Part shown: one piece after another, positions 42,454-58,074 of the stretch
Layout of the letters: every line of letters begins with the position of its first letter
How positions within the stretch are numbered: position 1 is the stretch's first letter
NCBI GenBank assembly: GCA_015062395.1
Contig: SUUS01000001.1
Coordinates: 65,429 to 129,428 of the forward strand
Source: Alphaproteobacteria bacterium
GTDB taxonomy: Bacteria; Pseudomonadota; Alphaproteobacteria; CAAHEQ01; UBA3637
Length of the DNA: 64,000 bases
Direction: 5' to 3'
Translations under genes and position numbers: made by a program
Notes under the pieces: generated by a model
Database searches by the model: none
Seen by the model: only the letters and a program-made list of their open reading frames with translations
What the model was told of the DNA's origin: nothing

Positions 42454-42530
42454 CGGAGCGTAGCTCAGTCTGGTAGAGTACTTGGTTTGGGACCAAGGTG
42501 CCGTAGGTTCAAATCCTATCGCTCCGACCA
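42454..42530 (+). tRNA. tRNA-Pro (anticodon UGG), CCA encoded
   Basis: CGGAGCGTAGCTCAGTCTGGTAGAGTACTTGGTTTGGGACCAAGGTGCCGTAGGTTCAAATCCTATCGCTCCGACCA. Cloverleaf folded by hand: acceptor CGGAGCG/CGCTCCG, anticodon stem CTTGG/CCAAG with loop TT-TGG-GA, T-arm GTAGG-TTCAAAT-CCTAT. Confidence 0.93.
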
Positions 42531-43322: not shown

Positions 43323-43351
43323 TTGACAAAAAAACAAAAAAGTGATATAAT
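43323..43351 (+). promoter_or_regulatory. Consensus sigma-70 promoter of the ProRS2-PPTase-ATP-grasp operon
   Basis: TTGACA (43323-43328), exactly 17 nt, then TATAAT (43346-43351). The ATG at 43394 is preceded by AGAGAGAGG. Confidence 0.6.
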
Positions 43352-43393
43352 ACGACATCGTGTTTTAAACATAAAAAGAGAGAGGCTATAAAA

Positions 43394-44908: not shown

Positions 44909-44913
44909 AAAAA

Positions 44914-45573
44914 ATGAGCAAAATTTTTCTTTATCATGTAGATAAATCAAAAATTGATGAGTCTCAGCTTTCTGTTCTGGAGTCTATTTTGTCAGCAACA
45001 GAAAACAAAAGATTTAAAAAGATAAAAATGATAGATGCGAGAAAGAATTTTATTCTTTCTCGTTTTCTGATTAATAAGGCATTAATGAATTTCAATTGTG
45101 CGCAAAGATTTCATATTGGTAGAACTATATATGGGAAACCATATTTATCTCCAAATCCTAAAAATTTAAAAATATCAATAAGTCATACGAGAGATATTAT
45201 TTGCCTTTTAATTGCAAAAAATATAGAGTTTATAGGTGTTGATATAGAGGAAAAAAACAGAAAAATAAATAAAAAAGGTATTATAAATTTTCTGTACTCT
45301 CCTGATGAAAAATTGTATCTTAAAACAAAAGATTTGTATAAAAATTTTTTTAAATATTGGACCTTTAAGGAGGCATTTACGAAAGCTCTTGGAAAAGGAC
45401 TTTTAATTCCATTTAATCAAATATCCTTTTCCAAAAAATACCAAAAGTATTATGTTACCTCTGTGCCTATTGATATAAACTCTAATACAACAGGGTTCAT
45501 AGTATGTTTAGATAAAAATGAAAGATCAGCCGATATTAACATAAATAATGTTATTATAGGAGGGATAAAATGA
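44914..45573 (+). CDS. Sfp-type 4'-phosphopantetheinyl transferase
   Basis: GKPYL, SISHT, IGVDIEE and YWTFKEAFTKALGKG (the W/KEA motif). It starts 5 nt after the ProRS2 stop. Confidence 0.85.
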   Translation: MSKIFLYHVDKSKIDESQLSVLESILSATENKRFKKIKMIDARKNFILSRFLINKALMNFNCAQRFHIGRTIYGKPYLSPNPKNLKISISHTRDIICLLIAKNIEFIGVDIEEKNRKINKKGIINFLYSPDEKLYLKTKDLYKNFFKYWTFKEAFTKALGKGLLIPFNQISFSKKYQKYYVTSVPIDINSNTTGFIVCLDKNERSADININNVIIGGIK

Positions 45574-46409
45574 AAAGAATTTGTATTGCGACAGATGAAG
45601 ATAATATCAATGATCCTGAGAATTTACTAATTAGTAAAATTCTTAATGACATGGGAGCTAAAGCAGAATTGACTATTTGGGATAAACAAGAAAGTCTTTT
45701 CAAAGATTGCGACTATGTTTTAATTCGTTCTTGTTGGAATTATCACAAATACCCAGATAAATTTATTCAATGGATAAATTCTCTCAATATTCCAACAATC
45801 AACGCTAAGAGTTTAATCCAATGGAATATTCATAAAAAATATCTTCTTGAGTTAGAAAAACACAATATTGAAATTCCAAAAACATATGTTATTCAAAAAG
45901 AAAATGTAAAAGATTTTAATTTTAATATATTTGATGAATTTGTAATAAAACCAGCAATATCAGCAAGTGGCTATTTGACATATAAATATAATAAAAATGA
46001 TAGTGAAAAGGTAAATTCTTTACTTCCATTGTATTCTTCAGATGTTTTAATACAAGAATTCATTCCGGAAGTAATACAAGAAGGTGAAATATCCTTTGTA
46101 TTTTTCAACAATAGCTTTTCACATGCTGTAAAAAAAATACCTTCACTATCTGATTTCAGAAGTCAAGCAAGATATGGAGGAACTGTTAAAAATTTTATTC
46201 CAAATCAAGCTTTAAAAAATAAGGCAGTAGAAATAGTACAAAAAATCATGGATATCACTAACGAATGCCCTTTCTATATGAGATTAGATGCGGTTTTGAG
46301 AAAAAATAATTTAGTTATAATGGAAATTGAGGCAATTGAACCCAGGCTTTTTTTATCGAATTCAAATTGTGATATCTTTAAAAAAGCTTGGCAATCTATT
46401 CTTCCTTAA
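45570..46409 (+). CDS. ATP-grasp ligase, RimK/GshB-like
   Basis: VIKPAISASG, VLIQEFIP, DFRSQARYGGT (compare the RimK EFRSN..GG motif) and LVIMEIEAIEP. ATGA overlap with the PPTase gene and a GGAGG RBS. Confidence 0.75.
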   Translation: MKRICIATDEDNINDPENLLISKILNDMGAKAELTIWDKQESLFKDCDYVLIRSCWNYHKYPDKFIQWINSLNIPTINAKSLIQWNIHKKYLLELEKHNIEIPKTYVIQKENVKDFNFNIFDEFVIKPAISASGYLTYKYNKNDSEKVNSLLPLYSSDVLIQEFIPEVIQEGEISFVFFNNSFSHAVKKIPSLSDFRSQARYGGTVKNFIPNQALKNKAVEIVQKIMDITNECPFYMRLDAVLRKNNLVIMEIEAIEPRLFLSNSNCDIFKKAWQSILP

Positions 46410-49400
46410 CTGTATCTTCTAAAAGGGATATATACAAAGAAGCCCAGTCTTTAATGGTATTTATATCAAAACGATGAACATGATACCAAAAATTAAAACG
46501 AAGATTGCTTTTCTGCATGTCGACTATCAGAAATAATCCCGCTAATTCTCTTAAGGTTGAATAGTTTAATGTATTCAACAATGGTTCTGAAATGGTTCCA
46601 AGTGTTTCTAAAACTTCTACTTTAGGCCAGACATTGTCTTTTTCTTTGTGATAATTATTCAGCATGATATAGGCATCTGTGAAATAACTTGATCGAGAGA
46701 AATTCAAAAACTTTTCGACATACTTAGGTAAAAGATTCACTGGGTAGTAAGACCTTTCATTCACAAGAGATACAATACTATTAATTTGGGTTATTTGTGT
46801 CATATTAGAAAGAGTTTCATCTAAAGAAATCGGAAGTGGGAATTGTTTAACGAATGGGCCTATTGTTTCTTTAAAATTATCCTCTGTTCGTCCATTGAAA
46901 ACAGTTCCTATTAATAAATTATGTTGTCTTGTTAATTTTACCAATAACTTCGAATAAACAAACAACAATACTGAAAAAACGGATACATGCGCTTTATGAG
47001 CAAATTTATTTAAGGATTCATATACTTTTTCTGAAGAAAAAATGGTATAGCAACTTGACGGATAACACTGTTCAAAAAATTCATCTCCGGTTTTATTTGG
47101 CAAAATTACAGGACGTGCAATACCAGCATATAACCCACCAAAGAAGGCTTCATTTTCCTTTTCTGTCTCCAGTAAAAATTTATGTTGCCAATCTACATAT
47201 TGATCATAGAGAACTGGATTTGGGAGTCTCAAATGTGATTTTTGAAGAAAAGAGGCATAAAATTTTCTTAATTCTTCAACAAATACCGTCACAGATGTTC
47301 CATCGAATGGCAAATGATGCGTAAAAAGAAGACATATAAACTGATTATTATTTAACTTTAAAATTTTTAAAATCCAAGGTGGGGTTTTTGTAATATCAGG
47401 AAAAGAAGATGTTAACGTACATGCTAAATTTTTTATATATTCAGCAACATTTTCTACACCCTTCATATTCACAAAAATACTTTCACTAGAAATGAAATCT
47501 TTTATATTACAAGTTTCATAATGATTATCAACATAACAATGTGTCAAAATTGGATGTCTTGAAATAACCTCTTTTAAGGCGTTCAAAAATGAATTCTTTT
47601 TTAGTTCGCAATGGAAAAGTATTGGTATCAATAAATATCCATATTTAATTCTTTCTAATGCCACCCACCTTTGTTCTTCATATGATAACTTGTTTTCACT
47701 ATTGTTCTTATCCAAGACAATCTCTGTTTTTTCACATAGTTTTTTATCCAATGATTTACTGGAACAATTTTTGATACAAAAGGCTGTTAAATTTCTTAAA
47801 GTTCTTTCTTTAAATACAACACTAACAGGGAATGAAATATTTAACAAATGTCTAATAGCGTTACGTAATTCTATTGCGCTTAAAGAATCAAGTCCCAAAT
47901 CAAAAAGATCATCATCTTTTTCAATATGGCAATTATGTGTATATTTGTCTAAAACTCGAGCAACTTCGGATGAGACAATACTAGGAATGTCTTGAATGCT
48001 GTATTGAGTTAATGTATCCGTGTTCTTTTCCTCAACAGGCAAATAATCTTTTGCTAACAATCTAAAGAACGGGCTATTTTCGAGTTTATATTTTCTTAAA
48101 AAGATATTCCAATTCATAGGTAATAAAATTACCTGTTCTTGTAAACTAAGTATTGATGACATTATCTCATCGAAATCGTTTTTTTTAAGATAAGAATATC
48201 CCTTTTCTTCTAATTTCTGCTGTAGATTCTTGTTTATATCAATAGTTCCTAAGTCCCCCCATGCTCCCCAATTAATACTTAATGCTGGTAATCCCAAAGA
48301 TATCCTATATTTACACACAGAATCCAAGAATGCGTTTGCTGTTGTATAATTAGATTGTCCAGGATTTCCTATTACGGATACAGCGGAAGAAAAGACTACA
48401 AAAAAATCTAACTGTGTATTTAAAGAGAGTTTATGTAAATTCCATACTCCAAGAACCTTTGCCTTTGCAATTTTCTTAAAGTCCTCCATAGTCGTATTTG
48501 TAAAGGATTTATCCTCAATACAACCAGCCGCATGCACAATTCCACCGATATTTTTTATATCAAGTTTTGAAGACAATGCAAAAAACTTGCTCTCATCGGA
48601 AATATCCATACTTATATATTCTAGGTCTAATGTGTCATCAAGCAGCTTTAAAGTTCTTATTTGTTCTATCACCTCATTCTTTTCCCGACGGCCAACTATC
48701 ACAATTCGTTTTGCACCATTTTTAATGAGCCACTTACTGGTTAAAAGTCCTAATGCACCTACCCCCCCTGTCACTAAATATTGTTTTTTAGGAACTATAG
48801 TGAGTTTCCGTTCTGATGATAAAGAAATGGGGGCTAAAGTTGCTTCAAAGACACTTTTCCCGCCTGGATCAATTTGAAAAAAACTAAACGACTTTTGCTG
48901 ACGTATACACGAAGCAATCTTTGAAATAGAATTTTCTGTCAATGCCTTTGCAAAAAAACAAGAGCATTTGATTTCTGAATTTTCAAGACAAATTGTTTTT
49001 AAAAGAGAAACTAGAGATTCATTTAAAAAGTCATTACCAACAAAAATAAACGAAATATTTTCTATTTTCCCCATTAAAAAGGCTTCTTTTAAGGAATAAA
49101 AAACGTTTTTGATCTTATTTAAATAAAGCCTTAAGATATCAGATGAGGTGTAATTCTGCACATCATCGGAAATACTGTCTATAACATATACAATACGTTC
49201 TATTTTCTTCTTAAAAGAATCAAGTTTTTCTTTTAAGAAGAATGAGTTATTTGAAATATCTGTACTTACAAGGAGATTCTTTTCTGATGAGAAGTGTGCT
49301 ATTTGACTTTTATCTCCTATAATTAACGAATTCTCTATATAAGATTTAGAAAAATTAGAAAGCGAAACTGATTCCCATTGAATTTTGTATAAATCGTTTC

Positions 49401-52400
49401 TCCAACTTGCCTTTTGTAATAAATCAACCGGCTCAAGATAATATTTTTTTAAATCAAAAGGATAAGTTGGTAGTTCAATTAATAAACAATTATCTTTCGG
49501 TAGGATATGGTCAAAATTAACGGATATTCCTTTCGAAAATAATTTTCCAAATGCTGAAAGTAATTGTTCTGTATCATCAGTAGTTTTTCTCATCATAGGT
49601 ATATATGTTGCGTTCTGCTCATCATAACATTCTGCAACCATATTAAGAAGCACAGAATTTGGACCTATTTCCAAGAAAATATCAACATCCTTATTTTTTA
49701 AATTATGGATCATATTTTCAAAATTGACAGGTTGAATCATGTGGTTACACCAATAGTCTGAAGATATTTCTCCTGTTTGAATAAAATCCCCCGTTACATT
49801 TGAAAGTAATTTTATAAAAGGATCCTTAAATGAAAATTTGGAAAGATATTTTTTATATACCGCCACAAGGGGATTAGCAACACTTGAATGGCCAAAACTG
49901 CTGTTATCTAATTTTTGTGCTTCAATCTTCTGATCATGTAAAGCTTTAAAAAGTGATAGTATTCTCTCTGTTGGACCAGATACAACCACTAAATTAGGTG
50001 TATTGATAGATGCTATAGATATCTCATTATAGTTTTCCAACAGTTTTTCGACAGTATTTTTATTAGCTCTGATTGCTAACATTTTTGCATGAATTTTTAA
50101 TGAAGTTAACAAAACAGCTCTATGATAAACTATTTGAAGTAATTCATTTAATTTTAGTATACCAGCACAGTAAGCTGCAACGTATTCTCCCAAACTATGT
50201 CCTAATACAAATTTAGGCAAAATTGCCATTTGTTTTAAAATTTCTAGAATAGATACTTCTATGGCTACAATTGCCAGTTGATTTAAAATAACATCTTGTT
50301 CTGAATATTTTTCCTGTTTCCATATTATATCGATTAGATCAAAATCCGTAAATTTCTTTATAATTTTATTACATTCCTGAATCTTTTTCTTAAAAATAGC
50401 ATTTTTCTCATACAGCCTCTTTCCCATCCCAAAATATTGAGATGTATAACCAGAAAAAATAAAGGCAAGCTGTTGTTTTTGTGAGACCTTAAAATCATCT
50501 TTTGTAACAGATGGGAGTTTTAATCGTTTTTCAGTATTTGACAGTTCGTATATCAAACGATCCATTGTATTCGCAACAAAAGAGACCCTATAATCAAAAT
50601 GATATTTCCTCTTTAAAAGTGAATAAGAGATATCCTGTAGACGTAAATCACGATGATTTTCGAAGAAAATTCTATGATTGTGTATTATTTTAACTAAATC
50701 CTCGAATTTCTTTCCAGAAAAAACAAACAAATAAAAATTATTCTTTTGTTTTGTTTGGTTGTTTTTTTTGTGTGAATAACTTTCTAAAATGACATTAGCG
50801 TTAGTACCACCAAGACCAAAGGAATTCACTAAGCAATAATGTTTCTTTGATTTCCAAGGGATCGTTTTATTATTTACATAAAAGGGAGAATCATCCAACT
50901 CCAATAAGGGGTTATTTTTTTTAAAATGAAGTGTAGCAGGTATTTGTTTATGCTGAATACATAAAATTGCTTTTATTATCCCTGCCATGCCAGAAGCCCA
51001 ACCGAGATGACCTATATTAGTTTTTACGCTCCCAATAACGCAATCCCTTTTCCTATTATTACCGAAAACATTTTTTAATGCTTGGATTTCAACTGCATCT
51101 CCAACGACAGTTCCAGTTCCATGTGTTTCAATAAAAGAAATTTTATCTGGCAGTATGTTTGCATCTTTTAAAGCTTGCTGTAATGATCGTGTTTGTCCAT
51201 CAATTGTTGGTGCTAGAAAATTAGATTTCCCATTATTTCCATCATTACTAACACCACTTCCTGAAATAATGGCTAAAATATTATCTTTATCTTTTATGGC
51301 TTTTGATAGTGGTTTTAATAAAACTACTCCTAATCCTTGGGCCATCATCATACCTTCTGATCTTTCATCGAAAGTACGTGTATGGCCATCTGGTGACCAA
51401 GGCATGTCTTTTTGGAAAGTATATTTATGTTTTGATGGGGACATAATGTTTACAGCACCAACTAGTGCCATTTCACATTCTCCATTCAAAAGAGCTTGTT
51501 TTGCCAAGTGAATTGCAACCAACGATGAAGAACATGCAGATTGTACATTAATACTTGGTCCTTCTAACCCCAATTTAAAGGAAACTTTTGTTGGTAAGTA
51601 ATCCTTATCCCCGCCCATCATAACTTGCAAATCCGAAAAACGTTCGAAGAAATACCTATTAGAACGATAATCTAAGTTTGGGTTAAGGTTATTAACAAGA
51701 TAGCTACTAAATCCTTGGGAAGCAAAGACTCCTATCTTTTTAGTCGTATTATTGTTAAGATATCCTGTTTTTTCTAGTAGTTCCCAAGATAATTCCAAAA
51801 ACTTTCGTTGTTGTGGATCCATCATTTCTGCTTCAGTCTTTGAATATCCAAAGAATTCAGCATCAAACAAATTTGCATCATCAATTGTAGATGAACAAAA
51901 TACATCATGCTCAAAGGGATCCAGCATTGACAAATCCTGTGATGGGCCAAAAGATTCGATACTTTCTTTACCAGTTGAAAGAAAATTCCAAAATTCGTCA
52001 GGAGTATGGCACTTAGGAAAATTGCATGCCATTCCTATTACAGCGATTTTTTCTTTTACAGGTTTTCCAAAATCTTGAATAACTGCTTCTTTCCCCTGTA
52101 TTATATTTCCTTTTAAGAGATCAGATACAGCATTAAATGTACTATTTTTTAGTAGCATAGCAACTGGTATTTTTTGCTTGAATGTTTCGAAAATTTTCGT
52201 GTATAGCTGAAGCAAGAGTAATGAGGTTCCACCTAGCTCAAAGAATGTCTTATTTTTGTCAAAGTCGGTTATGTGCAAAAGATCTCGCCAGATTTCTTCC
52301 AACTTAGTCAATTCTGAATGGGTTGTTGTTTCTTTTTTTTCTATATACGTTTGAATTAATACTTTTCTATCCAGTTTCCCTGACGGGGTTCTCGGTAATT

Positions 52401-53811
52401 TGTCAATTACGACAAAATCTTTAGGAGTCATATAATTAGGCACCAGAGTACCAATGGATTGCTTTATATCCAAAATCTCAGTTTTTTCGTTTTTCAAGAC
52501 AATAAAAGCGACAAGGAAAGTGGGCCGATTTTCAGCCATTATCGGACAAACAGCACATTCAAGAACATTTTTATCTTTTGATAATAGGTACTCTATTTCT
52601 GCAAGTTCTATTCTATACCCACTTATTTTTACTTGGTCATCTTTTCGCCCAACGAATTCAAGTTGCTTTTTCTTGTTTAGCTTGACAATATCGCCTGTTG
52701 CATATAGAAGATTTTTTGTGTTTTGAGGATCTGGGATGAAAGATTTATTTGTATCCTTTGGATTATTTACATACCCTTTAGCAATAAACGGAGCACAGAT
52801 AAACAATTCACCCTCCGTAGTAGCTGTAAGTTTTTCATTTAGAATTTTTAACTGTATATTGGATATAGGCTTTCCTATGGGAGGGAGTTTCCCCCACTGA
52901 TTAACATTCTTTGGTAATGTAAACGAAGTGACAACATGGGTCTCACTCGGACCATACTGATTGATTAGACGGCAATGCTTTAGAATTTTAAAAAAAGAAC
53001 GAATTACTGGCGTTATAATCAACTGTTCACCGGCTGTGATTACTTCTTTAAGAGAGGTAGGAAAGGTTTTATTAAGATCTGCGATTTGCGCTATGTAATT
53101 TAACATTACTGCGGGGAGAAAAATCCGTTCAATCTTGAACTTGTCAATTAAGTACAGCAGTTTTTCAGGATCTTTTCTTTCATTTTCTTCAATCAGTACT
53201 AATGAAGCACCCGTACATAAAGTAGAAAAAATTTCTTGAAAAGAAACATCGAAGCTAATTGGGGCAAATTGTAATGTTCTTTTTATCGCAGATTCTTTAA
53301 TTTGCCATGTAATAAGATTTTCAAGAACTGATGTTGGCATAACAACACCCTTTGGAGCTCCCGTAGAACCAGAAGTAAATATAATATAGGCCAATTTACC
53401 AAAACCGTTATTGTTTACGGTTTTATTTCCCCTTGAATTTTTAATTATCTTTTCAAAAAAAACAAACTTTTTATTTCTTTTGTCAATGGTTACATCATCT
53501 GTGATAATTAAATTTGTACCGGATTTTTCCTGCATAAAATTCAAACGCTCGACAGGATAACTCTTATCAAGTGGAACATAAGGGTTTCCAGACTTTAGAA
53601 TTCCTAAAATAGAGATAATTAACTCTATTGATCTGTCAAATAGTACTCCTACTGGTTTCTTATAATTTAATGATTTTATATAACCTGCAACTAAATCTGA
53701 TTTGAAATCTAATTCTCCATAAGTTAGCTCTATACCATCCTTAATAATGGCTACCTTATCGGGAGTCTCGACACAAATCTTCTTAAAATTGTTATATAAA
53801 CTACTTTGCAT
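46396..53811 (-). CDS. Hybrid NRPS-PKS megasynthase, A-T-KS-AT-KR-ACP-C (2471 aa)
   Basis: All core motifs are found in order; see the domain sub-features. There is no TE or reductase release domain. The protein ends in a condensation domain with an intact HHxxxDG. Confidence 0.95.
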   Translation of the reverse strand: MQSSLYNNFKKICVETPDKVAIIKDGIELTYGELDFKSDLVAGYIKSLNYKKPVGVLFDRSIELIISILGILKSGNPYVPLDKSYPVERLNFMQEKSGTNLIITDDVTIDKRNKKFVFFEKIIKNSRGNKTVNNNGFGKLAYIIFTSGSTGAPKGVVMPTSVLENLITWQIKESAIKRTLQFAPISFDVSFQEIFSTLCTGASLVLIEENERKDPEKLLYLIDKFKIERIFLPAVMLNYIAQIADLNKTFPTSLKEVITAGEQLIITPVIRSFFKILKHCRLINQYGPSETHVVTSFTLPKNVNQWGKLPPIGKPISNIQLKILNEKLTATTEGELFICAPFIAKGYVNNPKDTNKSFIPDPQNTKNLLYATGDIVKLNKKKQLEFVGRKDDQVKISGYRIELAEIEYLLSKDKNVLECAVCPIMAENRPTFLVAFIVLKNEKTEILDIKQSIGTLVPNYMTPKDFVVIDKLPRTPSGKLDRKVLIQTYIEKKETTTHSELTKLEEIWRDLLHITDFDKNKTFFELGGTSLLLLQLYTKIFETFKQKIPVAMLLKNSTFNAVSDLLKGNIIQGKEAVIQDFGKPVKEKIAVIGMACNFPKCHTPDEFWNFLSTGKESIESFGPSQDLSMLDPFEHDVFCSSTIDDANLFDAEFFGYSKTEAEMMDPQQRKFLELSWELLEKTGYLNNNTTKKIGVFASQGFSSYLVNNLNPNLDYRSNRYFFERFSDLQVMMGGDKDYLPTKVSFKLGLEGPSINVQSACSSSLVAIHLAKQALLNGECEMALVGAVNIMSPSKHKYTFQKDMPWSPDGHTRTFDERSEGMMMAQGLGVVLLKPLSKAIKDKDNILAIISGSGVSNDGNNGKSNFLAPTIDGQTRSLQQALKDANILPDKISFIETHGTGTVVGDAVEIQALKNVFGNNRKRDCVIGSVKTNIGHLGWASGMAGIIKAILCIQHKQIPATLHFKKNNPLLELDDSPFYVNNKTIPWKSKKHYCLVNSFGLGGTNANVILESYSHKKNNQTKQKNNFYLFVFSGKKFEDLVKIIHNHRIFFENHRDLRLQDISYSLLKRKYHFDYRVSFVANTMDRLIYELSNTEKRLKLPSVTKDDFKVSQKQQLAFIFSGYTSQYFGMGKRLYEKNAIFKKKIQECNKIIKKFTDFDLIDIIWKQEKYSEQDVILNQLAIVAIEVSILEILKQMAILPKFVLGHSLGEYVAAYCAGILKLNELLQIVYHRAVLLTSLKIHAKMLAIRANKNTVEKLLENYNEISIASINTPNLVVVSGPTERILSLFKALHDQKIEAQKLDNSSFGHSSVANPLVAVYKKYLSKFSFKDPFIKLLSNVTGDFIQTGEISSDYWCNHMIQPVNFENMIHNLKNKDVDIFLEIGPNSVLLNMVAECYDEQNATYIPMMRKTTDDTEQLLSAFGKLFSKGISVNFDHILPKDNCLLIELPTYPFDLKKYYLEPVDLLQKASWRNDLYKIQWESVSLSNFSKSYIENSLIIGDKSQIAHFSSEKNLLVSTDISNNSFFLKEKLDSFKKKIERIVYVIDSISDDVQNYTSSDILRLYLNKIKNVFYSLKEAFLMGKIENISFIFVGNDFLNESLVSLLKTICLENSEIKCSCFFAKALTENSISKIASCIRQQKSFSFFQIDPGGKSVFEATLAPISLSSERKLTIVPKKQYLVTGGVGALGLLTSKWLIKNGAKRIVIVGRREKNEVIEQIRTLKLLDDTLDLEYISMDISDESKFFALSSKLDIKNIGGIVHAAGCIEDKSFTNTTMEDFKKIAKAKVLGVWNLHKLSLNTQLDFFVVFSSAVSVIGNPGQSNYTTANAFLDSVCKYRISLGLPALSINWGAWGDLGTIDINKNLQQKLEEKGYSYLKKNDFDEIMSSILSLQEQVILLPMNWNIFLRKYKLENSPFFRLLAKDYLPVEEKNTDTLTQYSIQDIPSIVSSEVARVLDKYTHNCHIEKDDDLFDLGLDSLSAIELRNAIRHLLNISFPVSVVFKERTLRNLTAFCIKNCSSKSLDKKLCEKTEIVLDKNNSENKLSYEEQRWVALERIKYGYLLIPILFHCELKKNSFLNALKEVISRHPILTHCYVDNHYETCNIKDFISSESIFVNMKGVENVAEYIKNLACTLTSSFPDITKTPPWILKILKLNNNQFICLLFTHHLPFDGTSVTVFVEELRKFYASFLQKSHLRLPNPVLYDQYVDWQHKFLLETEKENEAFFGGLYAGIARPVILPNKTGDEFFEQCYPSSCYTIFSSEKVYESLNKFAHKAHVSVFSVLLFVYSKLLVKLTRQHNLLIGTVFNGRTEDNFKETIGPFVKQFPLPISLDETLSNMTQITQINSIVSLVNERSYYPVNLLPKYVEKFLNFSRSSYFTDAYIMLNNYHKEKDNVWPKVEVLETLGTISEPLLNTLNYSTLRELAGLFLIVDMQKSNLRFNFWYHVHRFDINTIKDWASLYISLLEDTVKEE
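46399..47694 (-). other. C-terminal condensation domain (aa ~2040-2471)
   Basis: LLFTHHLPFDGTSVTVF (HHxxxDG, His2165/His2166/Asp2170). About 430 aa, the typical C-domain length. Confidence 0.8.
47767..47979 (-). other. ACP domain (aa ~1945-2015)
   Basis: LFDLGLDSLSAIELRNAI (Ser1976). Confidence 0.85.
48232..48786 (-). other. Ketoreductase catalytic subdomain (aa ~1676-1860)
   Basis: YLVTGGVGALGLLTSKWL, HAAGCIEDK (LDD-like, hinting at B-type), SSAVSVIGNPGQSNYTTANAFLD (Tyr1822). The preceding aa ~1450-1675 look like the structural psi-KR half, with no DH HxxxGxxxxP motif. Confidence 0.85.
49552..50475 (-). other. Acyltransferase domain (aa ~1113-1420), non-canonical specificity motifs
   Basis: FIFSGYTSQYFGMG appears in place of the usual GQGSQ. 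The active site is GHSLGEY (Ser1206). SFGHS sits where HAFH or YASH normally does. Confidence 0.85.
50782..52050 (-). other. Ketosynthase domain (aa ~588-1010)
   Basis: IAVIGMACNFP, DPQQRKFLE, VQSACSSSLVAIHLA (Cys760), ETHGTGT (His897), KTNIGHLGWASG (His935). Confidence 0.92.
52102..52314 (-). other. Thiolation (PCP) domain (aa ~500-570)
   Basis: FFELGGTSLLLLQL, with Ser530 as the phosphopantetheine site. Confidence 0.8.
52357..53811 (-). other. Adenylation domain (aa ~1-485), proline-like specificity code
   Basis: A3 YIIFTSGSTGAPKGV, A4 FDVSFQEIF, A5 NQYGPSETHV, A6 GELFICAPFIAKGY, A7 YATGDIV, A8 GRKDDQVKISGYRIELAEIE, A10 PRTPSGKLDRK. Boundaries are approximate. Confidence 0.9.
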
Positions 53812-54043
53812 GATTCTGAATGAAACTCACAACATCCCCTATCGCTTTCATTTTGGCTATTTCTTCATTTGGAAAAGAAATATTAAATTTTTCTTCCAAC
53901 CGAAAAAATAAATCCATTTTATCTAAGGAATCCACTTCCATTTCTTTAAAAGACATATCACTGGTCAATATCTTATCATGTAAAGCGAACTTTACCTCTT
54001 TTAACGTTTCTTGAACTATTTGAAAAATATCGTTATCACTCAT
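53801..54043 (-). CDS. Discrete acyl carrier protein
   Basis: 80 aa. MEVDSLDKMDLFFRLEE (DSL serine motif). AGGAGG RBS. Overlaps the megasynthase start by 11 nt. Confidence 0.8.
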   Translation of the reverse strand: MSDNDIFQIVQETLKEVKFALHDKILTSDMSFKEMEVDSLDKMDLFFRLEEKFNISFPNEEIAKMKAIGDVVSFIQNHAK

Positions 54044-55004
54044 TTTTGCCTCCTGTCAATGTTAATAAACAATTACACCAAGAAAAACCCGTTCCAAATC
54101 CAGATAATACAAGGTAATTAGCATCTTTTTGTTTCAGATGTGGCTCTAGGATTAATGGGATTGATGATGAACTCGTATTACCATAATTAGCCGCTTTGAA
54201 TTTTAACTGATTTTCTTTTAGATTCAGGGTCGAAGATAATCTTTCCAGTAGATATCTTGATGGTTGATGACACAAAAACTCAGAAATATCACAAGTATCC
54301 AGTCCGTTTTTTAACAATAAGTTTTTAATTGATGCTGGAATTTCTTTCAACACATTATTAAAGACCATACGACCATCCATTCTTAAAAAATTTTTTTCTA
54401 TTATGGTCTCATAAGAATTTGGCAATGTTCCAAAATCCCAATCTTTTAAAATATATCCTGTTGAAACATCTTTTGTTATATAAGTCACTGTTGCTGCGTC
54501 GCCAAAGAGTAATACTGTATTTTTATCTTTTGGGTCTAGAATCCTCGATAACTGGTCACATGTGAAGAAGAGAGCGTTTTTCAAATGAAGGGTTTTCATC
54601 ATAGATAAAACGGTTAGTAAAGCATGGCAAAAACCAGCACATCCTTGACCGATATCAAAAGTAATACATTTTTTTGATAAACCTATTTTATTATGTAAAA
54701 TCGCGGACATATATGGAGCCTTATGATCTGGTGTTTGTGTTACCGTACATACTAAATCAATATTTTCAATGTCAATTTTGATTTTTTTCTCTAAATCATG
54801 CCATGCAGATAAACACATATCAGCCAAAGTCTGATGTTCTTTTATTTTAGACCTCCTAATTATTCCCAATTTATTTTCTATGAAATCTGGACTTACCTCA
54901 AAAGTTGTTAATAAATCCATATTATTTACATAGTTATCTGGAATATAAGTGCCAATACATTTTATTTTAAAGTTTTGCAAGCTCATCCCTCCTATTGATT
55001 TCAT
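54036..55004 (-). CDS. KASIII (FabH-like) beta-ketoacyl-ACP synthase
   Basis: DIGQGCAGFCHAL (Cys), FLCHQPS (His), ANYGNTSSSSIPLIL (Asn): a complete Cys-His-Asn triad. The start is uncertain (55004 or 54986). Overlaps the ACP gene by 8 nt. Confidence 0.85.
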   Translation of the reverse strand: MKSIGGMSLQNFKIKCIGTYIPDNYVNNMDLLTTFEVSPDFIENKLGIIRRSKIKEHQTLADMCLSAWHDLEKKIKIDIENIDLVCTVTQTPDHKAPYMSAILHNKIGLSKKCITFDIGQGCAGFCHALLTVLSMMKTLHLKNALFFTCDQLSRILDPKDKNTVLLFGDAATVTYITKDVSTGYILKDWDFGTLPNSYETIIEKNFLRMDGRMVFNNVLKEIPASIKNLLLKNGLDTCDISEFLCHQPSRYLLERLSSTLNLKENQLKFKAANYGNTSSSSIPLILEPHLKQKDANYLVLSGFGTGFSWCNCLLTLTGGKNE

Positions 55005-56067
55005 ATATTGGGAAATATGTTGGAATTTCAGAATTTTGATAATCTAGTATTAGTTGTGGAATATCTTCCCAACAATAGGTATACACGTCATCTATTATAG
55101 GCATCCAATTGTGCGAAATTGCATAGTTCATCGCATCTAAAGCTTCCTGACGATTTGCATAATGAGTATTTACATGTATGTGTCGATTAATGCATTCAAC
55201 CGTTCTTGAAATAGGAAGTAAGGATCCTGTCTTCCAACCACATGATGAAATTACGGCGTTCCTTCCCAATCCTTTTAGTGCTATTTTTGTGAATGTTCCT
55301 CCTAAATTATCTATAAATATTGATGCTCCCTCATTATGTGTTTCTCTTGAAATATACGACAAAAAATCTTTTTCAAAATCCTTAAATGTGGTTCGATTTA
55401 TGGGGATTATCCCTGAAGAACGAGCATATCTCTCTCTGTACTCATTTGATACCGTCATATAAACACTAAACCCCACTTTTTTTGCGAGAAGAAGTTCAGC
55501 ATATGAAACTCCACCACCATAAGCAAAAACGGACAATCCCTTTGGCTTTCGTTTCGAAAAGGTTTGTATTTTCCAACAGCCATACGCTTGCCGCCAATTT
55601 GAATAAGCAGAAATGAAGCGACCAGAGAATGCGGCCCATTGTTTCAAGGAAAATTGTGAATTTGGGGGTATCTTAATAACCTGTTCCTCTTTCAATTTGA
55701 TTTTTTTTGCTAAATTTCCCATAATTCCTTTTGCATCATAACCCGCTATCTTTATCGGATAACCTTGGGCGTCAGAGATACCATTCCCAAAATAAATGGC
55801 AAAATCACCAATTTCCACTGAGGAAACCTTCTTTCCTCTATTTTGAATATAAAGAACACCAGTATTACCCAAAATTATTTCTTCTTCTGCTCTATCTTCA
55901 TTAATGTTTGTGGGAACTTTTTGTACAGCATGTAAGATGTTTGCTTCAAAACAACCATAAACAGGTAAAGCCAATACCTCATCATCCTCAATATCCGGAA
56001 AATGAATTATTTTTCGTTCTAAAATAGATGAATCCTTCTGTAAAACATACGCCTCTGTTTCAATCAT
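54967..56067 (-). CDS. MDR-superfamily NAD(P)-dependent oxidoreductase (enoyl-reductase or CCR-like candidate)
   Basis: 366 aa. Rossmann segment VFAYGGGVSYAELLLAKKVGFSVYMTVSNEYRERYARSSGIIPINR fits the MDR pattern GxGGVGxxAxQLAKxxGAxVxxT. GroES-like N-terminal half. Confidence 0.65.
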   Translation of the reverse strand: MIETEAYVLQKDSSILERKIIHFPDIEDDEVLALPVYGCFEANILHAVQKVPTNINEDRAEEEIILGNTGVLYIQNRGKKVSSVEIGDFAIYFGNGISDAQGYPIKIAGYDAKGIMGNLAKKIKLKEEQVIKIPPNSQFSLKQWAAFSGRFISAYSNWRQAYGCWKIQTFSKRKPKGLSVFAYGGGVSYAELLLAKKVGFSVYMTVSNEYRERYARSSGIIPINRTTFKDFEKDFLSYISRETHNEGASIFIDNLGGTFTKIALKGLGRNAVISSCGWKTGSLLPISRTVECINRHIHVNTHYANRQEALDAMNYAISHNWMPIIDDVYTYCWEDIPQLILDYQNSEIPTYFPIYEINRRDELAKL

Positions 56068-56840
56068 TTTTTGCTCCGAAGTAAATACGTTTTACTCAAA
56101 GTACTTGGCTGTATTTTGGATATTATACTAAAACCAATTTGTTTAATCTCATCCTCTGATACATCTTCGTATAAAAGAGTTGCAGCTTTTTGTGGTAAAC
56201 GTAACAGAATATTAACATTAGTTTTGGCGGTATCTTTAATTTTTAATAATGTTTTTTTCTTATTAGATAGTCCATTTGCTAAAAGTACGATATTTTCATC
56301 CTTATACGAGAAATCAAAGGATCTCTTTTTTATAAACGTGAAATCTTTTGAAATATCTTTGGAGCACGTCTGTTTGATATACGCTTCAGAGGCTTTAAGA
56401 GCTTGTGTATCATAATCCAAACAAACTGGTATAATCCTCTGATAATTTTGTTTAAGTTCAATTAATGTTTCAGGGTGGTATCCACTACCAGCCATAAGAC
56501 AACGTTTCTGGCTGGATAGATCCTTAATAAGATTAAATTCGCAAAGAACTCCAGCATATCCTTCTTTTTCAAGAATGGATATGCTATTTACCTTTTCACC
56601 ATTCAAAAAATCCTTAACCTTGTTCCTTTCTAATTCTTTTATATACTTATTCCATTTTAAAGAAATTTCCTTTTTATCATCAGAAGATAAAGAAGTAAGC
56701 AAGTCAGAGATTTCATTTTCAGATAAACCAATTAAAATCTTCCAAAAATCCTGAAAGACTAATAAGTCAGGTTCAGTGTAATAAGCCTTTAAAGGTATAG
56801 ATAAAACCTTTTGCGTAATTTGTAATATGGACACTCTCAT
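56064..56840 (-). CDS. Nicotianamine-synthase-like (CntL-like) SAM-dependent transferase candidate
   Basis: 258 aa. RCLMAGSGYHPETLIEL versus NAS VAFVGSGPLPLTSIVLA. VCLDYDTQALKASEAYI versus NAS xNxDxDxxANxxA. VLLANGLSNKKKTLLKI...ILLRLPQKAATLLYEDVSEDEIKQIGFSIISKIQPS...TYLLRSKK versus NAS VFLAALVGM..EEK.KVI...LVVRSAHGARAFLYPVVD..DI..GFEVLSVFHP...NSVIIARK. The comparison is from memory of the family consensus. Confidence 0.5.
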   Translation of the reverse strand: MRVSILQITQKVLSIPLKAYYTEPDLLVFQDFWKILIGLSENEISDLLTSLSSDDKKEISLKWNKYIKELERNKVKDFLNGEKVNSISILEKEGYAGVLCEFNLIKDLSSQKRCLMAGSGYHPETLIELKQNYQRIIPVCLDYDTQALKASEAYIKQTCSKDISKDFTFIKKRSFDFSYKDENIVLLANGLSNKKKTLLKIKDTAKTNVNILLRLPQKAATLLYEDVSEDEIKQIGFSIISKIQPSTLSKTYLLRSKK

Positions 56841-56912: not shown

Positions 56913-57353
56913 TTACTCACTGACAGCAGTTGAAGAAAAAATAGCTTCTGCAACAATTCTATTGTTGATTCTAATTGTTCCTTCAAACTTATAAGCATTA
57001 CCGATAGAGTGTTTTTTTATAGCCTCAATGTAAAGAGTATCTCCAGGGCGAGCTTGCCCTCTAAATTTTGCACTTTCAATAGTCATAAAAAGAAAAATTA
57101 AATTATGACATTTTCTTTCTTTAAGGTCAAAATACATCAGTATATTCGACAATTGGGACATTGCTTCAACAAAGAAAGTTCCAGGAAAAATGGGGTTATT
57201 TGGGAAATGTCCTTTTAAGAAGAATTCATCTGATGAAATTTCTTTTATGCCCGAAATTTTATCACTGGTATAGTCCAACACAGCGTCAACCATCAACATA
57301 GGATAACGATGCGGAAGAATTGTTTTTATTTTTTCTAAATCTAAACTTGGCAT
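56913..57353 (-). CDS. fabZ: FabZ-like 3-hydroxyacyl-ACP dehydratase
   Basis: LPHRYPMLMVDAVLDY and GHFPNNPIFPGTFFVEAMSQ (catalytic His and Glu context). It is not in the usual lpxD-fabZ-lpxA context. Confidence 0.85.
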   Translation of the reverse strand: MPSLDLEKIKTILPHRYPMLMVDAVLDYTSDKISGIKEISSDEFFLKGHFPNNPIFPGTFFVEAMSQLSNILMYFDLKERKCHNLIFLFMTIESAKFRGQARPGDTLYIEAIKKHSIGNAYKFEGTIRINNRIVAEAIFSSTAVSE

Positions 57354-57386
57354 AAAAACTCCACTGGCTAGTTAGTATGGAAAATT

Positions 57387-57450
57387 TGTGATAAGAACAA
57401 CTTTTTAGACAGGGACAAAAGAATGTGTCTAAAAAGTTGTTCTTATCACA
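57387..57450. repeat. Perfect 25-bp inverted repeat with a 14-nt spacer
   Basis: TGTGATAAGAACAACTTTTTAGACA (57387-57411) and its exact reverse complement TGTCTAAAAAGTTGTTCTTATCACA (57426-57450). It lies 2 nt from the 3' end of tRNA-Pro(CGG) and 33 nt from the fabZ-like ATG. Confidence 0.9.
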
Positions 57451-57452
57451 TT

Positions 57453-57529
57453 TGGTCGGAGTGGCGGGATTTGAACCCACGACCCCTACGTCCCGAACGT
57501 AGTGCTCTACCAAACTGAGCTACACTCCG
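57453..57529 (-). tRNA. tRNA-Pro (anticodon CGG), CCA encoded
   Basis: Reverse complement is CGGAGTGTAGCTCAGTTTGGTAGAGCACTACGTTCGGGACGTAGGGGTCGTGGGTTCAAATCCCGCCACTCCGACCA. Acceptor CGGAGTG/CACTCCG, anticodon stem CTACG/CGTAG with loop TT-CGG-GA. Confidence 0.93.
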
Positions 57530-57653: not shown

Positions 57654-58073
57654 ATGACAAAGTACGAAGAAAAAGTAAAACAATTTCACAAAGTAATGAA
57701 CTTACCTGTAAATAGTCAATTTAACGTTGAATTATTACAGTTAAGAAAAAAACTTATTTTAGAAGAAACTCAAGAACTTATTGCAGAGTTGGATTATGCG
57801 ATTAACCAACTTCAGACAAAAGATAAGTCCGTTTTACGCCCTACTTTCGAAAATATGTGTAAAGAAATGGCCGATGTACAATATGCTTTATCAGGACTGG
57901 CTATTTCTTTTGGTTTACCGATAGAAGAAGCTTTTGATGCTACACACAACAGCAATATGTCTAAATTAGGTAATGATGGGAAACCCGTTTACAGAGAAGA
58001 TGGAAAGATTACCAAAGGTCCAAATTATCATAAGCCAGATTTATCAAATCTTATTCAGAAAGTAGAAGAATAA
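57654..58073 (+). CDS. MazG-like nucleotide pyrophosphohydrolase domain protein
   Basis: 139 aa all-alpha protein. LILEETQELIAELD...EMADVQYALSGLAISFGLP has the EExxE/D metal-binding pattern of the MazG/dimeric-dUTPase superfamily. Confidence 0.6.
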   Translation: MTKYEEKVKQFHKVMNLPVNSQFNVELLQLRKKLILEETQELIAELDYAINQLQTKDKSVLRPTFENMCKEMADVQYALSGLAISFGLPIEEAFDATHNSNMSKLGNDGKPVYREDGKITKGPNYHKPDLSNLIQKVEE

Positions 58074-58074
58074 A

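What the first reader, a model, noticed from the sequence alone, without database searches (positions are those of the whole stretch)
54036..56840. Nicotianamine-synthase-like enzyme translationally coupled to an MDR reductase, a KASIII and an ACP inside a PKS-NRPS operon
Seen in sequence:
- The 258-aa protein aligns along its length with my recollection of the NAS/CntL family consensus. The matching blocks are the GSGxxPxT SAM loop, xDxDxxAxxxA, VxLAxxxxxxxKxxxxxx, LLR…LLYE…D/E-I…GF.I.S…P and a terminal ...RSKK.
- Its stop overlaps the start of the MDR-fold reductase (ATGA). That gene overlaps the KASIII, which overlaps the ACP, which overlaps the megasynthase. This implies stoichiometric co-expression.

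Established: bacterial NAS-like enzymes such as CntL transfer the 3-amino-3-carboxypropyl group of SAM onto an amine. They normally pair with an opine dehydrogenase in metallophore operons (staphylopine, pseudopaline), not with PKS/FAS parts.

Inference: a SAM-derived aminobutyrate unit may be attached to the pyrrolidine nitrogen or to an ACP-bound intermediate. That combination would be new. It could alternatively be a divergent methyltransferase.
Basis: partly seen in the sequence, partly recalled or inferred. Interest (0 to 1): 0.7.

Follow-up and report, generated by a model that had tools for sequence, protein, structure and literature searches.

The report
NAS-like enzyme in proline-mimic gene cluster
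The 258-residue protein really is a very divergent relative of nicotianamine synthase, and it marks a widespread, undescribed antibiotic-type gene cluster that loads a proline-like building block and carries its own spare prolyl-tRNA synthetase, so the product probably mimics proline or poisons proline decoding.

Summary
Observation confirmed. On the minus strand, NAS-like (56064-56840), MDR reductase, KASIII, ACP and a 2471-aa A-T-KS-AT-KR-ACP-C megasynthase overlap by 4, 38, 8 and 11 nt.

New context:
- Relatives in Streptomyces, a Moraniibacteriota MAG and metagenomes sit next to an A domain with a proline-type code (DVQF[IVN]A[QH]V[VA]K). A KS-AT/MT-KR-ACP-C synthase follows.
- Seven loci also carry an E-type ProRS.
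- The window has two ProRS genes. One is the housekeeping P-type. The extra E-type is in an operon with a PPTase and an ATP-grasp.
- Two tRNA-Pro genes bracket the cluster.

Best reading (about 0.45): the enzyme cyclises SAM to azetidine-2-carboxylate for the proline-type A domain.
Main rival (about 0.33): canonical aminocarboxypropyl transfer to an amine.

New variant of a known kind. Interest 0.72.

The parts
56064..56840 (-). NAS/CntL-superfamily enzyme (258 aa), divergent subfamily. N-terminal helical domain of about 110 aa, followed by a Rossmann SAM-binding domain.
54967..56067 (-). Divergent MDR-superfamily (enoyl-reductase-type) oxidoreductase, 366 aa. Its start overlaps the NAS-like stop (ATGA).
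   Evidence: PF00107 scores E 2.1e-7, just under the gathering score. There are weak hits to PIG3, YhdH and CCR families. PDB gives only 3gaz at E 7e-5. It is conserved at 80% identity in L001. It is not a conserved partner of the family elsewhere: the MDR in L024 is only 21% identical.
54036..55004 (-). KASIII (FabH-like) condensing enzyme, 322 aa, with an intact Cys/His/Asn triad.
   Evidence: PF08545 and PF08541, NF006829 E 9.2e-62. The triad motifs are read from the translation.
53801..54043 (-). Stand-alone acyl carrier protein, 80 aa (DSL motif).
   Evidence: PF00550 and NF002150. It overlaps KASIII by 8 nt and the megasynthase by 11 nt.
46396..53811 (-). Hybrid NRPS-PKS, 2471 aa. Domains: A (aa 11-479), T, KS (587-963), AT (1117-1429), KR (1678-1852), ACP (1962-2011), terminal C (2066-2469, HHLPFDG).
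   Evidence: Domains from Pfam. The A-domain Stachelhaus code is DVQFIAQVVK, a proline type, with a GrsA control giving DAWTIAAICK. The same architecture occurs in L013, L017, L018 and L024.
43394..44908 (+). Extra E-type (family I) prolyl-tRNA synthetase, 504 aa, first gene of an operon with the PPTase and the ATP-grasp. Proposed self-protection copy.
   Evidence: TIGR00408 scores 490 bits against a cut-off of 437. Pfam hits are tRNA-synt_2b, HGTP_anticodon and ProRS-C_1. Its best PDB match is T. thermophilus ProRS. E-type ProRS lies next to NAS-like genes in L011, L013, L014, L017, L020 and L022.
44914..45573 (+). Sfp-type 4'-phosphopantetheinyl transferase, 219 aa.
   Evidence: PF01648 and PF22624. 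A PPTase also lies next to the NAS-like gene in L009, L017 and L022.
45570..46409 (+). DcsG-like ATP-grasp enzyme, 279 aa, convergent with the megasynthase.
   Evidence: Pfam ATP-grasp hits. NCBIfam DcsG scores 99 bits, below its cut-off. A homologue at 27% identity (E 1e-24) lies two genes from the NAS-like gene in L010.
34919..36637 (-). Housekeeping P-type prolyl-tRNA synthetase with editing domain, 572 aa. It shows that the E-type copy is a second ProRS.
   Evidence: Pfam hits are tRNA-synt_2b, tRNA_edit and HGTP_anticodon. NF006625 scores 675 bits against a cut-off of 558.
56913..57353 (-). FabZ-type 3-hydroxyacyl-ACP dehydratase, 146 aa, 72 nt upstream of the NAS-like gene. Its membership of the operon is uncertain.
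   Evidence: PF07977; NF000582 scores 131.5 bits against a cut-off of 113. The same position is kept in L001. A promoter-like site, TTGACT-18-TATACT, lies in the gap at 56905-56876.
57453..57529 (-). tRNA-Pro(CGG) at the head of the minus-strand gene block.
   Evidence: ARAGORN. A 24-bp hairpin follows it.
42454..42530 (+). tRNA-Pro(UGG), about 860 nt upstream of the E-type ProRS.
   Evidence: ARAGORN. Its own TTGACA-17-TATAAT promoter and terminator hairpin are read.

Best explanation
The 258-aa protein is a SAM-binding enzyme of the nicotianamine-synthase/CntL superfamily. It belongs to a distinct subfamily that Pfam PF03059 does not capture. It is the signature enzyme of a conserved biosynthetic cluster: NAS-like enzyme, proline-type adenylation-thiolation unit, one PKS module (KS-AT or MT-KR-ACP) and a terminal condensation domain. 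The cluster is often accompanied by an additional E-type prolyl-tRNA synthetase.

Shown here:
- family and fold
- the conserved Glu/Tyr catalytic pair and SAM motifs
- translational coupling
- the proline-type A-domain code
- recurrence of the cluster in unrelated bacteria
- two ProRS genes in this window

Inferred (most likely mechanism, about 0.45):
1. The enzyme uses the aminocarboxypropyl group of SAM intramolecularly. E71 and Y95 deprotonate the SAM alpha-amine, which attacks C-gamma and releases MTA. This gives azetidine-2-carboxylate (AZE), the ring-closure chemistry that plant NAS performs on its last unit.
2. The proline-type A domain loads AZE.
3. The PKS module adds one malonate unit and reduces it to the beta-hydroxy acyl chain.
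4. The terminal C domain releases the chain by amide formation, either lactamisation or coupling to an amine.
5. The extra ProRS protects the producer's proline decoding from the proline mimic or from the final product.
6. In this lineage KASIII, ACP, MDR and FabZ add a short fatty-acyl or extender-unit branch.
For: Family membership:
- The profile of the 17 closest relatives hits CntL at E 2.8e-15 and MtNAS at 6.4e-10 over residues 6-259. The next hits are methyltransferases at E >= 0.07.
- 44 of 74 relatives hit PF03059. The closest outside relative, P0004, passes its gathering score.
- E71 aligns with MtNAS E81 and CntL E84. Y95 aligns with MtNAS Y107. The roles of those residues are given in PMC10491745.

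Context:
- The NAS-like gene lies directly upstream of A-T plus KS-AT/MT-KR-ACP-C in L013, L014, L015, L009, L017 (Moraniibacteriota), L018 (Streptomyces) and L024.
- All nine linked A domains carry DVQF[IVN]A[QH]V[VA]K. That code is listed as Pro in PMC9113097.
- Proline-specific NRPS modules accept AZE when an AZE synthase is co-expressed (PMC11794875; bioRxiv 2026.07.12.738029).
- Plant NAS forms an azetidine ring from SAM (PMC10491745 and PMC11794875).
- AZE is activated by ProRS and inserted at Pro codons (PMC5741666).

ProRS link:
- An E-type ProRS lies next to the NAS-like gene in the window, L011, L013, L014, L017, L022 and Streptomyces L020.
- The window also holds a canonical P-type ProRS, so the E-type is an extra copy.
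- L020 has ProRS and NAS-like with ATP-grasp amino-acid ligases and no PKS. This ties ProRS to the NAS-like product rather than to the ketide part.
Against: - No biochemical data exist. The AZE assignment rests on context alone.
- Every characterised prokaryotic NAS-like enzyme (CntL, MtNAS) transfers the group to another molecule's amine.
- The conserved Glu/Tyr pair fits both intramolecular and intermolecular chemistry.
- The A-domain code is also that of plain proline, so the A domain may simply load Pro.
- An added discriminating ProRS cannot stop the resident P-type ProRS from mischarging AZE. An extra ProRS fits a ProRS inhibitor better than a misincorporated analogue.
- The Pro-pocket motifs RPTSE, VVRWE, EFLWQEGHT, TSH.LG and TSWG of the cluster-linked ProRS are unchanged, and I saw no shared substitution.
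- The window's ProRS is no closer to the other cluster-linked ProRS (43-50%) than to T. thermophilus ProRS (52%). The five ProRS-M15 loci may share ancestry, so the independent associations number about three, not seven.
- L009, L010, L018, L019 and L021 show no ProRS nearby.
Confidence: 0.45

Rival explanations
1. Canonical NAS-like chemistry. The enzyme transfers the 3-amino-3-carboxypropyl group of SAM to the amine of another molecule. Candidate acceptors are free proline or Pro-S-T (giving N-(3-amino-3-carboxypropyl)proline, the first reader's idea), another amino acid that the terminal C domain or the ATP-grasp then couples, or the finished product as a tailoring step. The final compound is a ProRS inhibitor, and the extra E-type ProRS is the resistant target copy.
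For: - All characterised bacterial and archaeal homologues do intermolecular transfer using the same Glu/Tyr pair, which is conserved here.
- The A-domain code is a bona fide Pro code.
- An added resistant aaRS is the classical immunity device against aaRS inhibitors (own knowledge, e.g. mupirocin MupM).
- SAM-derived aminocarboxypropyl decoration of an aaRS inhibitor has a precedent in microcin C, through MccD.
- ATP-grasp enzymes lie next to NAS-like genes in the window, L010, L020 and L021. This would suit a product with a new free carboxylate or amine.
Against: - No acceptor can be named.
- A Pro-type A pocket would have to accept an N-alkylated proline, or the enzyme would have to act on a carrier-bound substrate. 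Neither is known for this family.
- Two separate explanations are needed for the NAS-like/A-domain adjacency and for the NAS-like/ProRS link in the PKS-free locus L020.
Confidence: 0.33
2. It is a divergent ordinary class I methyltransferase that methylates the NRPS-PKS product.
For: - It has the Rossmann SAM fold with a GxG loop and an acidic residue at the end of beta-2.
- Several relatives also give weak hits to Methyltransf_25 and Methyltransf_31.
- The first, low-confidence model matched methyltransferases best.
Against: - With a confident model, MtNAS and CntL lead by 4.5 to 7.4 Z units and align over about 60 more residues, including the N-terminal helical domain.
- The sequence profile finds only CntL and MtNAS significantly.
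- The NAS catalytic Glu and Tyr are invariant or nearly so.
Confidence: 0.04
3. It makes a nicotianamine- or opine-type metallophore and merely neighbours the NRPS-PKS genes.
For: Most known bacterial NAS-like enzymes make metallophores.
Against: - No CntM-type opine dehydrogenase, CntK or metallophore transporter was found in any scanned gene of the operon or in the two flanking blocks examined (36964-46409 and 57654-58809).
- The gene overlaps its neighbours by 4 to 38 nt.
- The NRPS-PKS partnership recurs in at least nine loci from unrelated bacteria.
Confidence: 0.05
4. The ProRS and tRNA-Pro neighbourhood is coincidental (housekeeping genes, an island inserted beside a tRNA gene) and says nothing about the product.
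For: - The tRNA-Pro genes have their own promoter and terminator signals and are absent from the related loci.
- The window's ProRS is not specifically related to the other cluster-linked ProRS.
- Five of the ProRS-linked loci may be one lineage.
Against: - The window has a second, canonical ProRS 6.8 kb away.
- The E-type gene is packed with the cluster's PPTase and ATP-grasp, with a 5-nt gap and a 4-nt overlap.
- An E-type ProRS also lies beside the NAS-like gene in a Streptomyces. By my own knowledge, the native enzyme of that genus is the P-type.
- Both tRNA genes in 64 kb are tRNA-Pro.
Confidence: 0.1

Closest known systems
CntL (D-histidine 2-aminobutanoyltransferase, staphylopine pathway; PDB 7C7M, 7C9K, 7C9M)
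   Same: - Best sequence-profile match (E 2.8e-15, full length).
- Glycine-rich SAM loop present.
- Catalytic Glu84 aligns with E71.
   Different: - Only about 16% identity.
- The subfamily has its own invariant residues: GxGPyPETL, ANG..K, R.P...LLYE.
- There is no CntM, CntK or metallophore transporter.
- The partners are a proline-type NRPS-PKS and a ProRS.
MtNAS (thermonicotianamine synthase, PDB 3FPE) and plant/fungal nicotianamine synthase (PF03059)
   Same: - Both catalytic residues, E81 and Y107, are conserved as E71 and Y95.
- Plant NAS provides the precedent for azetidine ring closure from SAM within this fold.
   Different: - The window protein does not reach PF03059 on its own.
- Nothing suggests iterative three-unit synthesis or a role in metal handling.
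AzeJ / VioH bacterial AZE synthases
   Same: The proposed reaction is the same (SAM to AZE plus MTA). The proposed role is the same: supplying a proline mimic to a proline-type NRPS module (PMC11794875).
SwnK (fungal swainsonine synthase, A-T-KS-AT-KR-T-TR)
   Same: Same assembly logic. A cyclic imino acid is adenylated and extended by one malonate, and the beta-keto group is reduced to a hydroxyl before release (PMC5473758). The domain order matches the window's A-T-KS-AT-KR-ACP.
   Different: - SwnK is fungal and loads pipecolate.
- It releases the chain through a thioester reductase, not a condensation domain.
- It has no SAM-utilising partner and no ProRS.
aaRS self-resistance genes in antibiotic clusters, and MccD in microcin C
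   Same: - A second, divergent synthetase copy is encoded with the cluster.
- MccD shows that SAM-derived aminocarboxypropyl transfer is used on an aaRS-targeting natural product (PMC10491745).
   Different: - The searchable literature yielded no ProRS-based example.

Membership tests
NAS/CntL superfamily (Pfam PF03059) | Significant match of the protein itself to the PF03059 model | tested here: not met
   There is no Pfam family at E <= 1 for the window protein. However, 44 of 74 relatives match PF03059, and the closest outside relative, P0004, passes the gathering score at 36.9 bits against 27.1.
NAS/CntL superfamily (Pfam PF03059) | Profile-level homology to experimentally characterised members over the full length | tested here: met
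   The A3 profile hits CntL at E 2.8e-15 (residues 6-252) and MtNAS at 6.4e-10 (12-259). Nothing else scores below E 0.02.
NAS/CntL superfamily (Pfam PF03059) | Two-domain fold: N-terminal helical domain plus C-terminal Rossmann SAM domain | tested here: met
   [not shown]
NAS/CntL superfamily (Pfam PF03059) | Catalytic Glu and Tyr that deprotonate the attacking amine (MtNAS E81 and Y107) | tested here: met
   E71 aligns with E81 and with CntL E84. Y95 aligns with Y107. E71 is invariant and Y95 nearly invariant among the 17 closest relatives.
NAS/CntL superfamily (Pfam PF03059) | Glycine-rich SAM loop and an acidic residue after beta-2 | tested here: met
   G118 is nearly invariant, G120 invariant and D142 nearly invariant. 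They align with GSGAYP/IDID of CntL.
NAS/CntL superfamily (Pfam PF03059) | Aminocarboxypropyl transfer from SAM with release of MTA | not testable with these tools
   This needs an enzyme assay.
Opine-type metallophore system (CntKLM-like) | Adjacent CntM-type opine dehydrogenase and metallophore export/import genes | tested here: not met
   The operon neighbours are FabZ, MDR, KASIII, ACP and an NRPS-PKS. The flanks hold a PPTase, an ATP-grasp, a ProRS, a MazG-like gene and an acyl-ACP thioesterase. None is an opine dehydrogenase.
AzeJ/VioH AZE synthases | Homology to the AzeJ/VioH class I methyltransferase-like family | tested here: not met
   [not shown]
AzeJ/VioH AZE synthases | Gene adjacent to an NRPS module that incorporates AZE in place of proline | tested here: inconclusive
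   The linked A domains carry proline-type codes. The code cannot tell Pro from AZE.
aaRS self-resistance gene | A second synthetase of the same specificity, encoded with the cluster in addition to the housekeeping copy | tested here: met
   The P-type ProRS lies at 34919-36637 and the E-type ProRS at 43394-44908. Both are above NCBIfam cut-offs. The E-type is in an operon with the PPTase and the ATP-grasp.
aaRS self-resistance gene | The extra copy is insensitive to the product, or discriminates against the analogue | not testable with these tools
   The pocket motifs are unchanged. Kinetic measurements are needed.

The most novel reading that the evidence does not exclude
This NAS-like subfamily is a second, independently evolved family of bacterial azetidine-2-carboxylate synthases. 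It defines a widespread cluster type, found in Streptomyces, candidate-phyla-radiation bacteria and this low-GC Gram-negative bacterium. The products of that cluster type target proline decoding, and a cluster-borne E-type ProRS serves as the immunity gene. That would be the first ProRS-based self-resistance system, and a ready handle for resistance-guided discovery of ProRS-directed antibiotics.
Probability: 0.35. Interest if true: 0.85.

Novelty: new variant of a known kind. Interest (0 to 1): 0.72.

Why it matters
- **Reach of the family.** NAS-like enzymes are known from metal-chelator pathways. Here a distinct subfamily, invisible to Pfam, is the constant partner of a proline-type NRPS-PKS in very different bacteria.
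- **A testable prediction about the product.** A spare prolyl-tRNA synthetase travels with the cluster. This predicts that the cluster makes a proline mimic or a ProRS inhibitor. ProRS is a validated drug target, for example of halofuginone-type inhibitors.
- **A possible new enzyme origin.** If the enzyme makes azetidine-2-carboxylate, it would show that this strained ring arose twice in bacteria. It would also give a bacterial model for the unresolved ring-closing step of plant nicotianamine synthase.
- **Experimental access.** Two cultivable Streptomyces strains carry related clusters, so the question can be addressed in the laboratory.

Tried and rejected
- **Single-sequence searches.** Pfam, NCBIfam and PDB searches with the 258-aa protein or a 3-sequence profile gave nothing.
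- **Word-indexed homologue searches.** They found only 3 to 5 clusters. The exhaustive HMMER search was needed.
- **Collection scans.**
  - The genome scan with the closest four sequences found nothing.
  - The metagenome scan returned two 14-residue matches that I regard as spurious.
- **139-aa protein.** I tested whether the 139-aa gene upstream of the NAS-like gene in L011 matches the window's 139-aa MazG-like protein. It does not.
- **MDR orthology.** I tested whether the MDR beside the NAS-like gene in L024 is the orthologue of the window's MDR. Identity is only 21% over 205 aa, so this is not established.
- **ProRS pocket.** I looked for a shared active-site substitution in the cluster-linked ProRS. 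None was seen.
- **tRNA-Pro in related loci.** None was found.
- **M15 dipeptidase.** It is common in related loci but absent from the window.
- **Literature.** Searches for a ProRS self-resistance cluster, for NAS-like enzymes in NRPS/PKS clusters and for the exact A-domain codes gave no precedent. The exception is DVQFVAQVVK, listed as Pro.
- **Organism.** It could not be identified. The protein is known only from JGI, ENA and Logan metagenome contigs.

Full report
**1. What is in the sequence.**

On the minus strand the window carries a tightly packed block:

| Gene | Coordinates | Size |
|---|---|---|
| FabZ-type dehydratase | 56913-57353 | 146 aa |
| ORF of the finding | 56064-56840 | 258 aa |
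| MDR-type oxidoreductase | 54967-56067 | 366 aa |
| KASIII | 54036-55004 | 322 aa |
| ACP | 53801-54043 | 80 aa |
| Megasynthase | 46396-53811 | 2471 aa |

I read the junctions directly:
- The 258-aa ORF ends and the MDR gene starts in ATGA.
- The KASIII stop overlaps the ACP start by 8 nt, behind an AGGAGG.
- The ACP stop overlaps the megasynthase start by 11 nt.
- MDR and KASIII overlap by 38 nt, or 20 nt with the next ATG.

A 72-nt gap with a promoter-like TTGACT-18-TATACT separates FabZ from the 258-aa ORF. The same gene order and the same overlaps occur in a relative whose protein is 65% identical (L001 and L002).

Pfam and NCBIfam support KASIII, ACP and FabZ clearly. For the MDR protein the support is weak: ADH_zinc_N at 31.4 bits against a cut-off of 31.8, with faint PIG3, YhdH and CCR-family similarity. 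The megasynthase is A-T-KS-AT-KR-ACP-C with an intact HHLPFDG motif.

**2. Is the 258-aa protein NAS-like?**

Alone it matches nothing:
- Pfam has no family at E <= 1.
- NCBIfam has none.
- The PDB has no significant hit, even with a 3-sequence profile.
- Word-indexed searching finds only three clusters, at 100, 90 and 65% identity.

The exhaustive profile search found 87 relatives at E <= 1e-3. Of 74 aligned relatives, 44 hit PF03059 with a best E of 1.8e-51. The nearest outside relative, P0004 (E 1.7e-32 to the profile), passes the NAS gathering score.

A profile of the 17 closest sequences hits the solved CntL structures at E 2.8e-15 and MtNAS at 6.4e-10 over essentially the whole length. 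The best methyltransferase scores E 0.07.

In those alignments the invariant E71 falls on MtNAS E81. It also falls on the residue mutated in the CntL E84Q structure. The nearly invariant Y95 falls on MtNAS Y107. These two residues are described as deprotonating the attacking amine (PMC10491745).

- The top 12 Foldseek matches are all MtNAS or CntL.

The protein is therefore a member of the NAS/CntL superfamily and not an ordinary methyltransferase. It belongs to a subfamily with its own invariant motifs: GxGPyPETL, ANG..K and R.P...LLYE.

**3. What travels with it.**

The MDR, KASIII, ACP and FabZ genes are found only in the window's lineage.

| Locus | Source | Gene order around the NAS-like gene |
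|---|---|---|
| L013 | metagenome | ProRS, M15 dipeptidase, NAS-like, A-T, KS-AT-cMT-KR-ACP-C |
| L014 | metagenome | ProRS, M15 dipeptidase, NAS-like, A-T, PKS (contig ends within it) |
| L017 | Moraniibacteriota MAG | acyl ligase, ProRS, M15, PPTase, NAS-like, A-T, KS-MT-KR-ACP-C |
| L022 | metagenome | same head as L017 |
| L009 | metagenome | PPTase, NAS-like, A, T-KS |
| L015 | metagenome | NAS-like, megasynthase |
| L018 | Streptomyces sp. HK10 | NAS-like, A-T, KS-AT-KR-ACP-C, B12 mutase |
| L024 | metagenome | MDR, NAS-like, A-T, KS-AT-KR-ACP-C, M15, MFS |

The terminal C domains of these synthases are 33-49% identical to one another and keep the catalytic His and Asp.

I extracted the Stachelhaus codes with a GrsA control, which returned the expected DAWTIAAICK. 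All nine NAS-linked A domains read DVQF[IVN]A[QH]V[VA]K. This is the proline type. DVQFVAQVVK itself is tabulated as Pro (PMC9113097).

The conserved unit is therefore the NAS-like enzyme, a proline-type A-T, one reducing PKS module and a terminal C domain. This is the assembly logic of fungal SwnK, which extends pipecolate by one malonate and reduces it (PMC5473758). The release domain differs.

**4. The proline-decoding link.**

An E-type ProRS lies beside the NAS-like gene in L011, L013, L014, L017 and L022. It also does so in Streptomyces sp. NPDC126499 (L020). There the NAS-like gene is followed by a B12 mutase, a TauD oxygenase, four ATP-grasp amino-acid ligases and an MFS pump, with no PKS at all.

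In the window the E-type ProRS (43394-44908) scores 490 bits against a TIGR00408 cut-off of 437. It heads a compact operon with the Sfp-type PPTase and a DcsG-like ATP-grasp, and that operon converges on the megasynthase.

The window also holds a canonical P-type ProRS with an editing domain at 34919-36637 (NF006625, 675 bits against 558). The E-type enzyme is therefore a second ProRS.

The only two tRNA genes in the 64 kb are both tRNA-Pro. They bracket the cluster at 42454-42530 and 57453-57529. Each appears to be its own transcription unit, and related loci lack them.

Caveats:
- The ProRS proteins of the five ProRS-M15 loci are 56-78% identical to each other. They may reflect one lineage.
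- The window's ProRS is no closer to them than to T. thermophilus ProRS.
- I saw no shared pocket substitution.

I count about three independent associations: the window, the ProRS-M15 group and Streptomyces. Chance adjacency of one particular housekeeping gene three times is very unlikely.

**5. Mechanism.**

Shown: a SAM-binding NAS-fold enzyme with the family's catalytic pair, coupled to a proline-type NRPS-PKS and linked to an extra ProRS.

Inferred: what it does with SAM. Two readings fit.

*(a) Intramolecular attack of the SAM amine on C-gamma, giving azetidine-2-carboxylate and MTA.*
- Plant NAS performs such a ring closure (PMC10491745 and PMC11794875).
- Proline-specific NRPS modules take AZE when it is supplied.
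- AZE is charged by ProRS and inserted at proline codons (PMC5741666).
- One idea thus explains three things: the gene's position next to the A domain, the proline-type code, and the ProRS link, including the PKS-free Streptomyces locus.

- This is what every characterised prokaryotic homologue does.
- Microcin C gives a precedent for this decoration on an aaRS inhibitor.

An added ProRS protects well against an inhibitor. It protects only partly against a misincorporated analogue while the P-type enzyme remains. This point favours a ProRS-inhibiting end product under either reading.

I weigh (a) at about 0.45 and (b) at about 0.33. A plain methyltransferase gets about 0.04 and an unrelated metallophore enzyme about 0.05.

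Downstream, the chain would be a 3-hydroxy-3-(azetidin- or pyrrolidin-2-yl)propanoyl thioester. The C domain would release it by amide formation. KASIII, ACP, MDR and FabZ in this lineage, and an acyl ligase in L017 and L022, probably supply an acyl or extender branch. That part is guesswork.

**6. Comparison and novelty.**

The closest known proteins are CntL and MtNAS, with the same fold and catalytic residues at about 16% identity. Functionally, the closest analogues are:
- AzeJ and VioH, a different family;
- SwnK, for the assembly line;
- aaRS immunity genes, for the ProRS.

No CntM-type dehydrogenase or metallophore transporter is present. The searchable literature gave no NAS-like enzyme in an NRPS/PKS cluster and no ProRS self-resistance cluster. 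I rate this a new variant of a known kind.

**7. Limits.**
- There is no biochemistry, and the organism is unknown (metagenome contigs only).
- I examined a small number of loci, because the contig look-ups were exhausted and two collection scans failed.
- The acceptor question cannot be settled from sequence.

Noticed in passing
window 42454-42530 (+) and 57453-57529 (-): The only two tRNA genes in the 64-kb window are both tRNA-Pro (UGG and CGG). They bracket exactly the two convergent operons of the cluster and both point inward. Each has its own promoter-like and hairpin signals. Related loci have no tRNA-Pro.
   Followed up: partly
window 34919-36637 (-) and 43394-44908 (+): Two prolyl-tRNA synthetase genes of different types lie about 6.8 kb apart. 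One is the P-type with an editing domain and the other is the E-type. Both score above NCBIfam equivalog cut-offs.
   Followed up: yes
window 42531-43393, including 43059-43178 (-): About 860 nt of mostly non-coding DNA lie between tRNA-Pro(UGG) and the E-type ProRS. The stretch contains a 39-codon remnant that looks like the N-terminus of an HU/IHF-type DNA-binding protein (MNKTELVEAIAKTAGLTKADADRAV...) cut short by a stop. This may be a scar of insertion or gene decay at the edge of the cluster.
   Followed up: partly
window 57385-57445 (-): A perfect 24-bp AT-rich inverted repeat (TGTGATAAGAACAACTTTTTAGAC ... GTCTAAAAAGTTGTTCTTATCACA) lies between tRNA-Pro(CGG) and the FabZ-type gene. It could be a terminator, a processing site or a recombination site.
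   Followed up: no
L003 4661-12076: On another metagenome contig of the same organism (NAS-like protein 100% identical), the megasynthase is called as two genes of 203 aa and 2236 aa, not one of 2471 aa. This is either a frameshifted variant or an assembly error.
   Followed up: no
L017 4544-17841 (Candidatus Moraniibacteriota MAG): A candidate-phyla-radiation bacterium carries a full acyl ligase, ProRS, M15, PPTase, NAS-like, A-T, KS-MT-KR-ACP-C cluster. That is unexpected for such small genomes.
   Followed up: partly
L018 18521-20473 and L020 10898-12829: Both Streptomyces loci encode a fused B12-binding/methylaspartate-mutase-E protein next to the NAS-like system. In L020 it lies immediately after the NAS-like gene. 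Its role is unexplained.
   Followed up: no
L011, L013, L014, L017, L022, L024: A VanX-type M15 D-Ala-D-Ala dipeptidase homologue recurs in the related clusters, with 47-52% identity among them. It is absent from the window. It may be an immunity or processing peptidase.
   Followed up: partly
window 39863-42213 (+): A 392-aa repeat-rich ORF with no Pfam hit lies about 350 nt before a separate 274-aa autotransporter beta-domain ORF. Together they look like a split or decaying autotransporter gene.
   Followed up: no
window 57654-58809 (+): A MazG/PRA-PH-like pyrophosphohydrolase (139 aa) and a FatA/B-type acyl-ACP thioesterase (244 aa) are transcribed divergently from the cluster head. The thioesterase could belong to the KASIII/ACP branch.
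   Followed up: no
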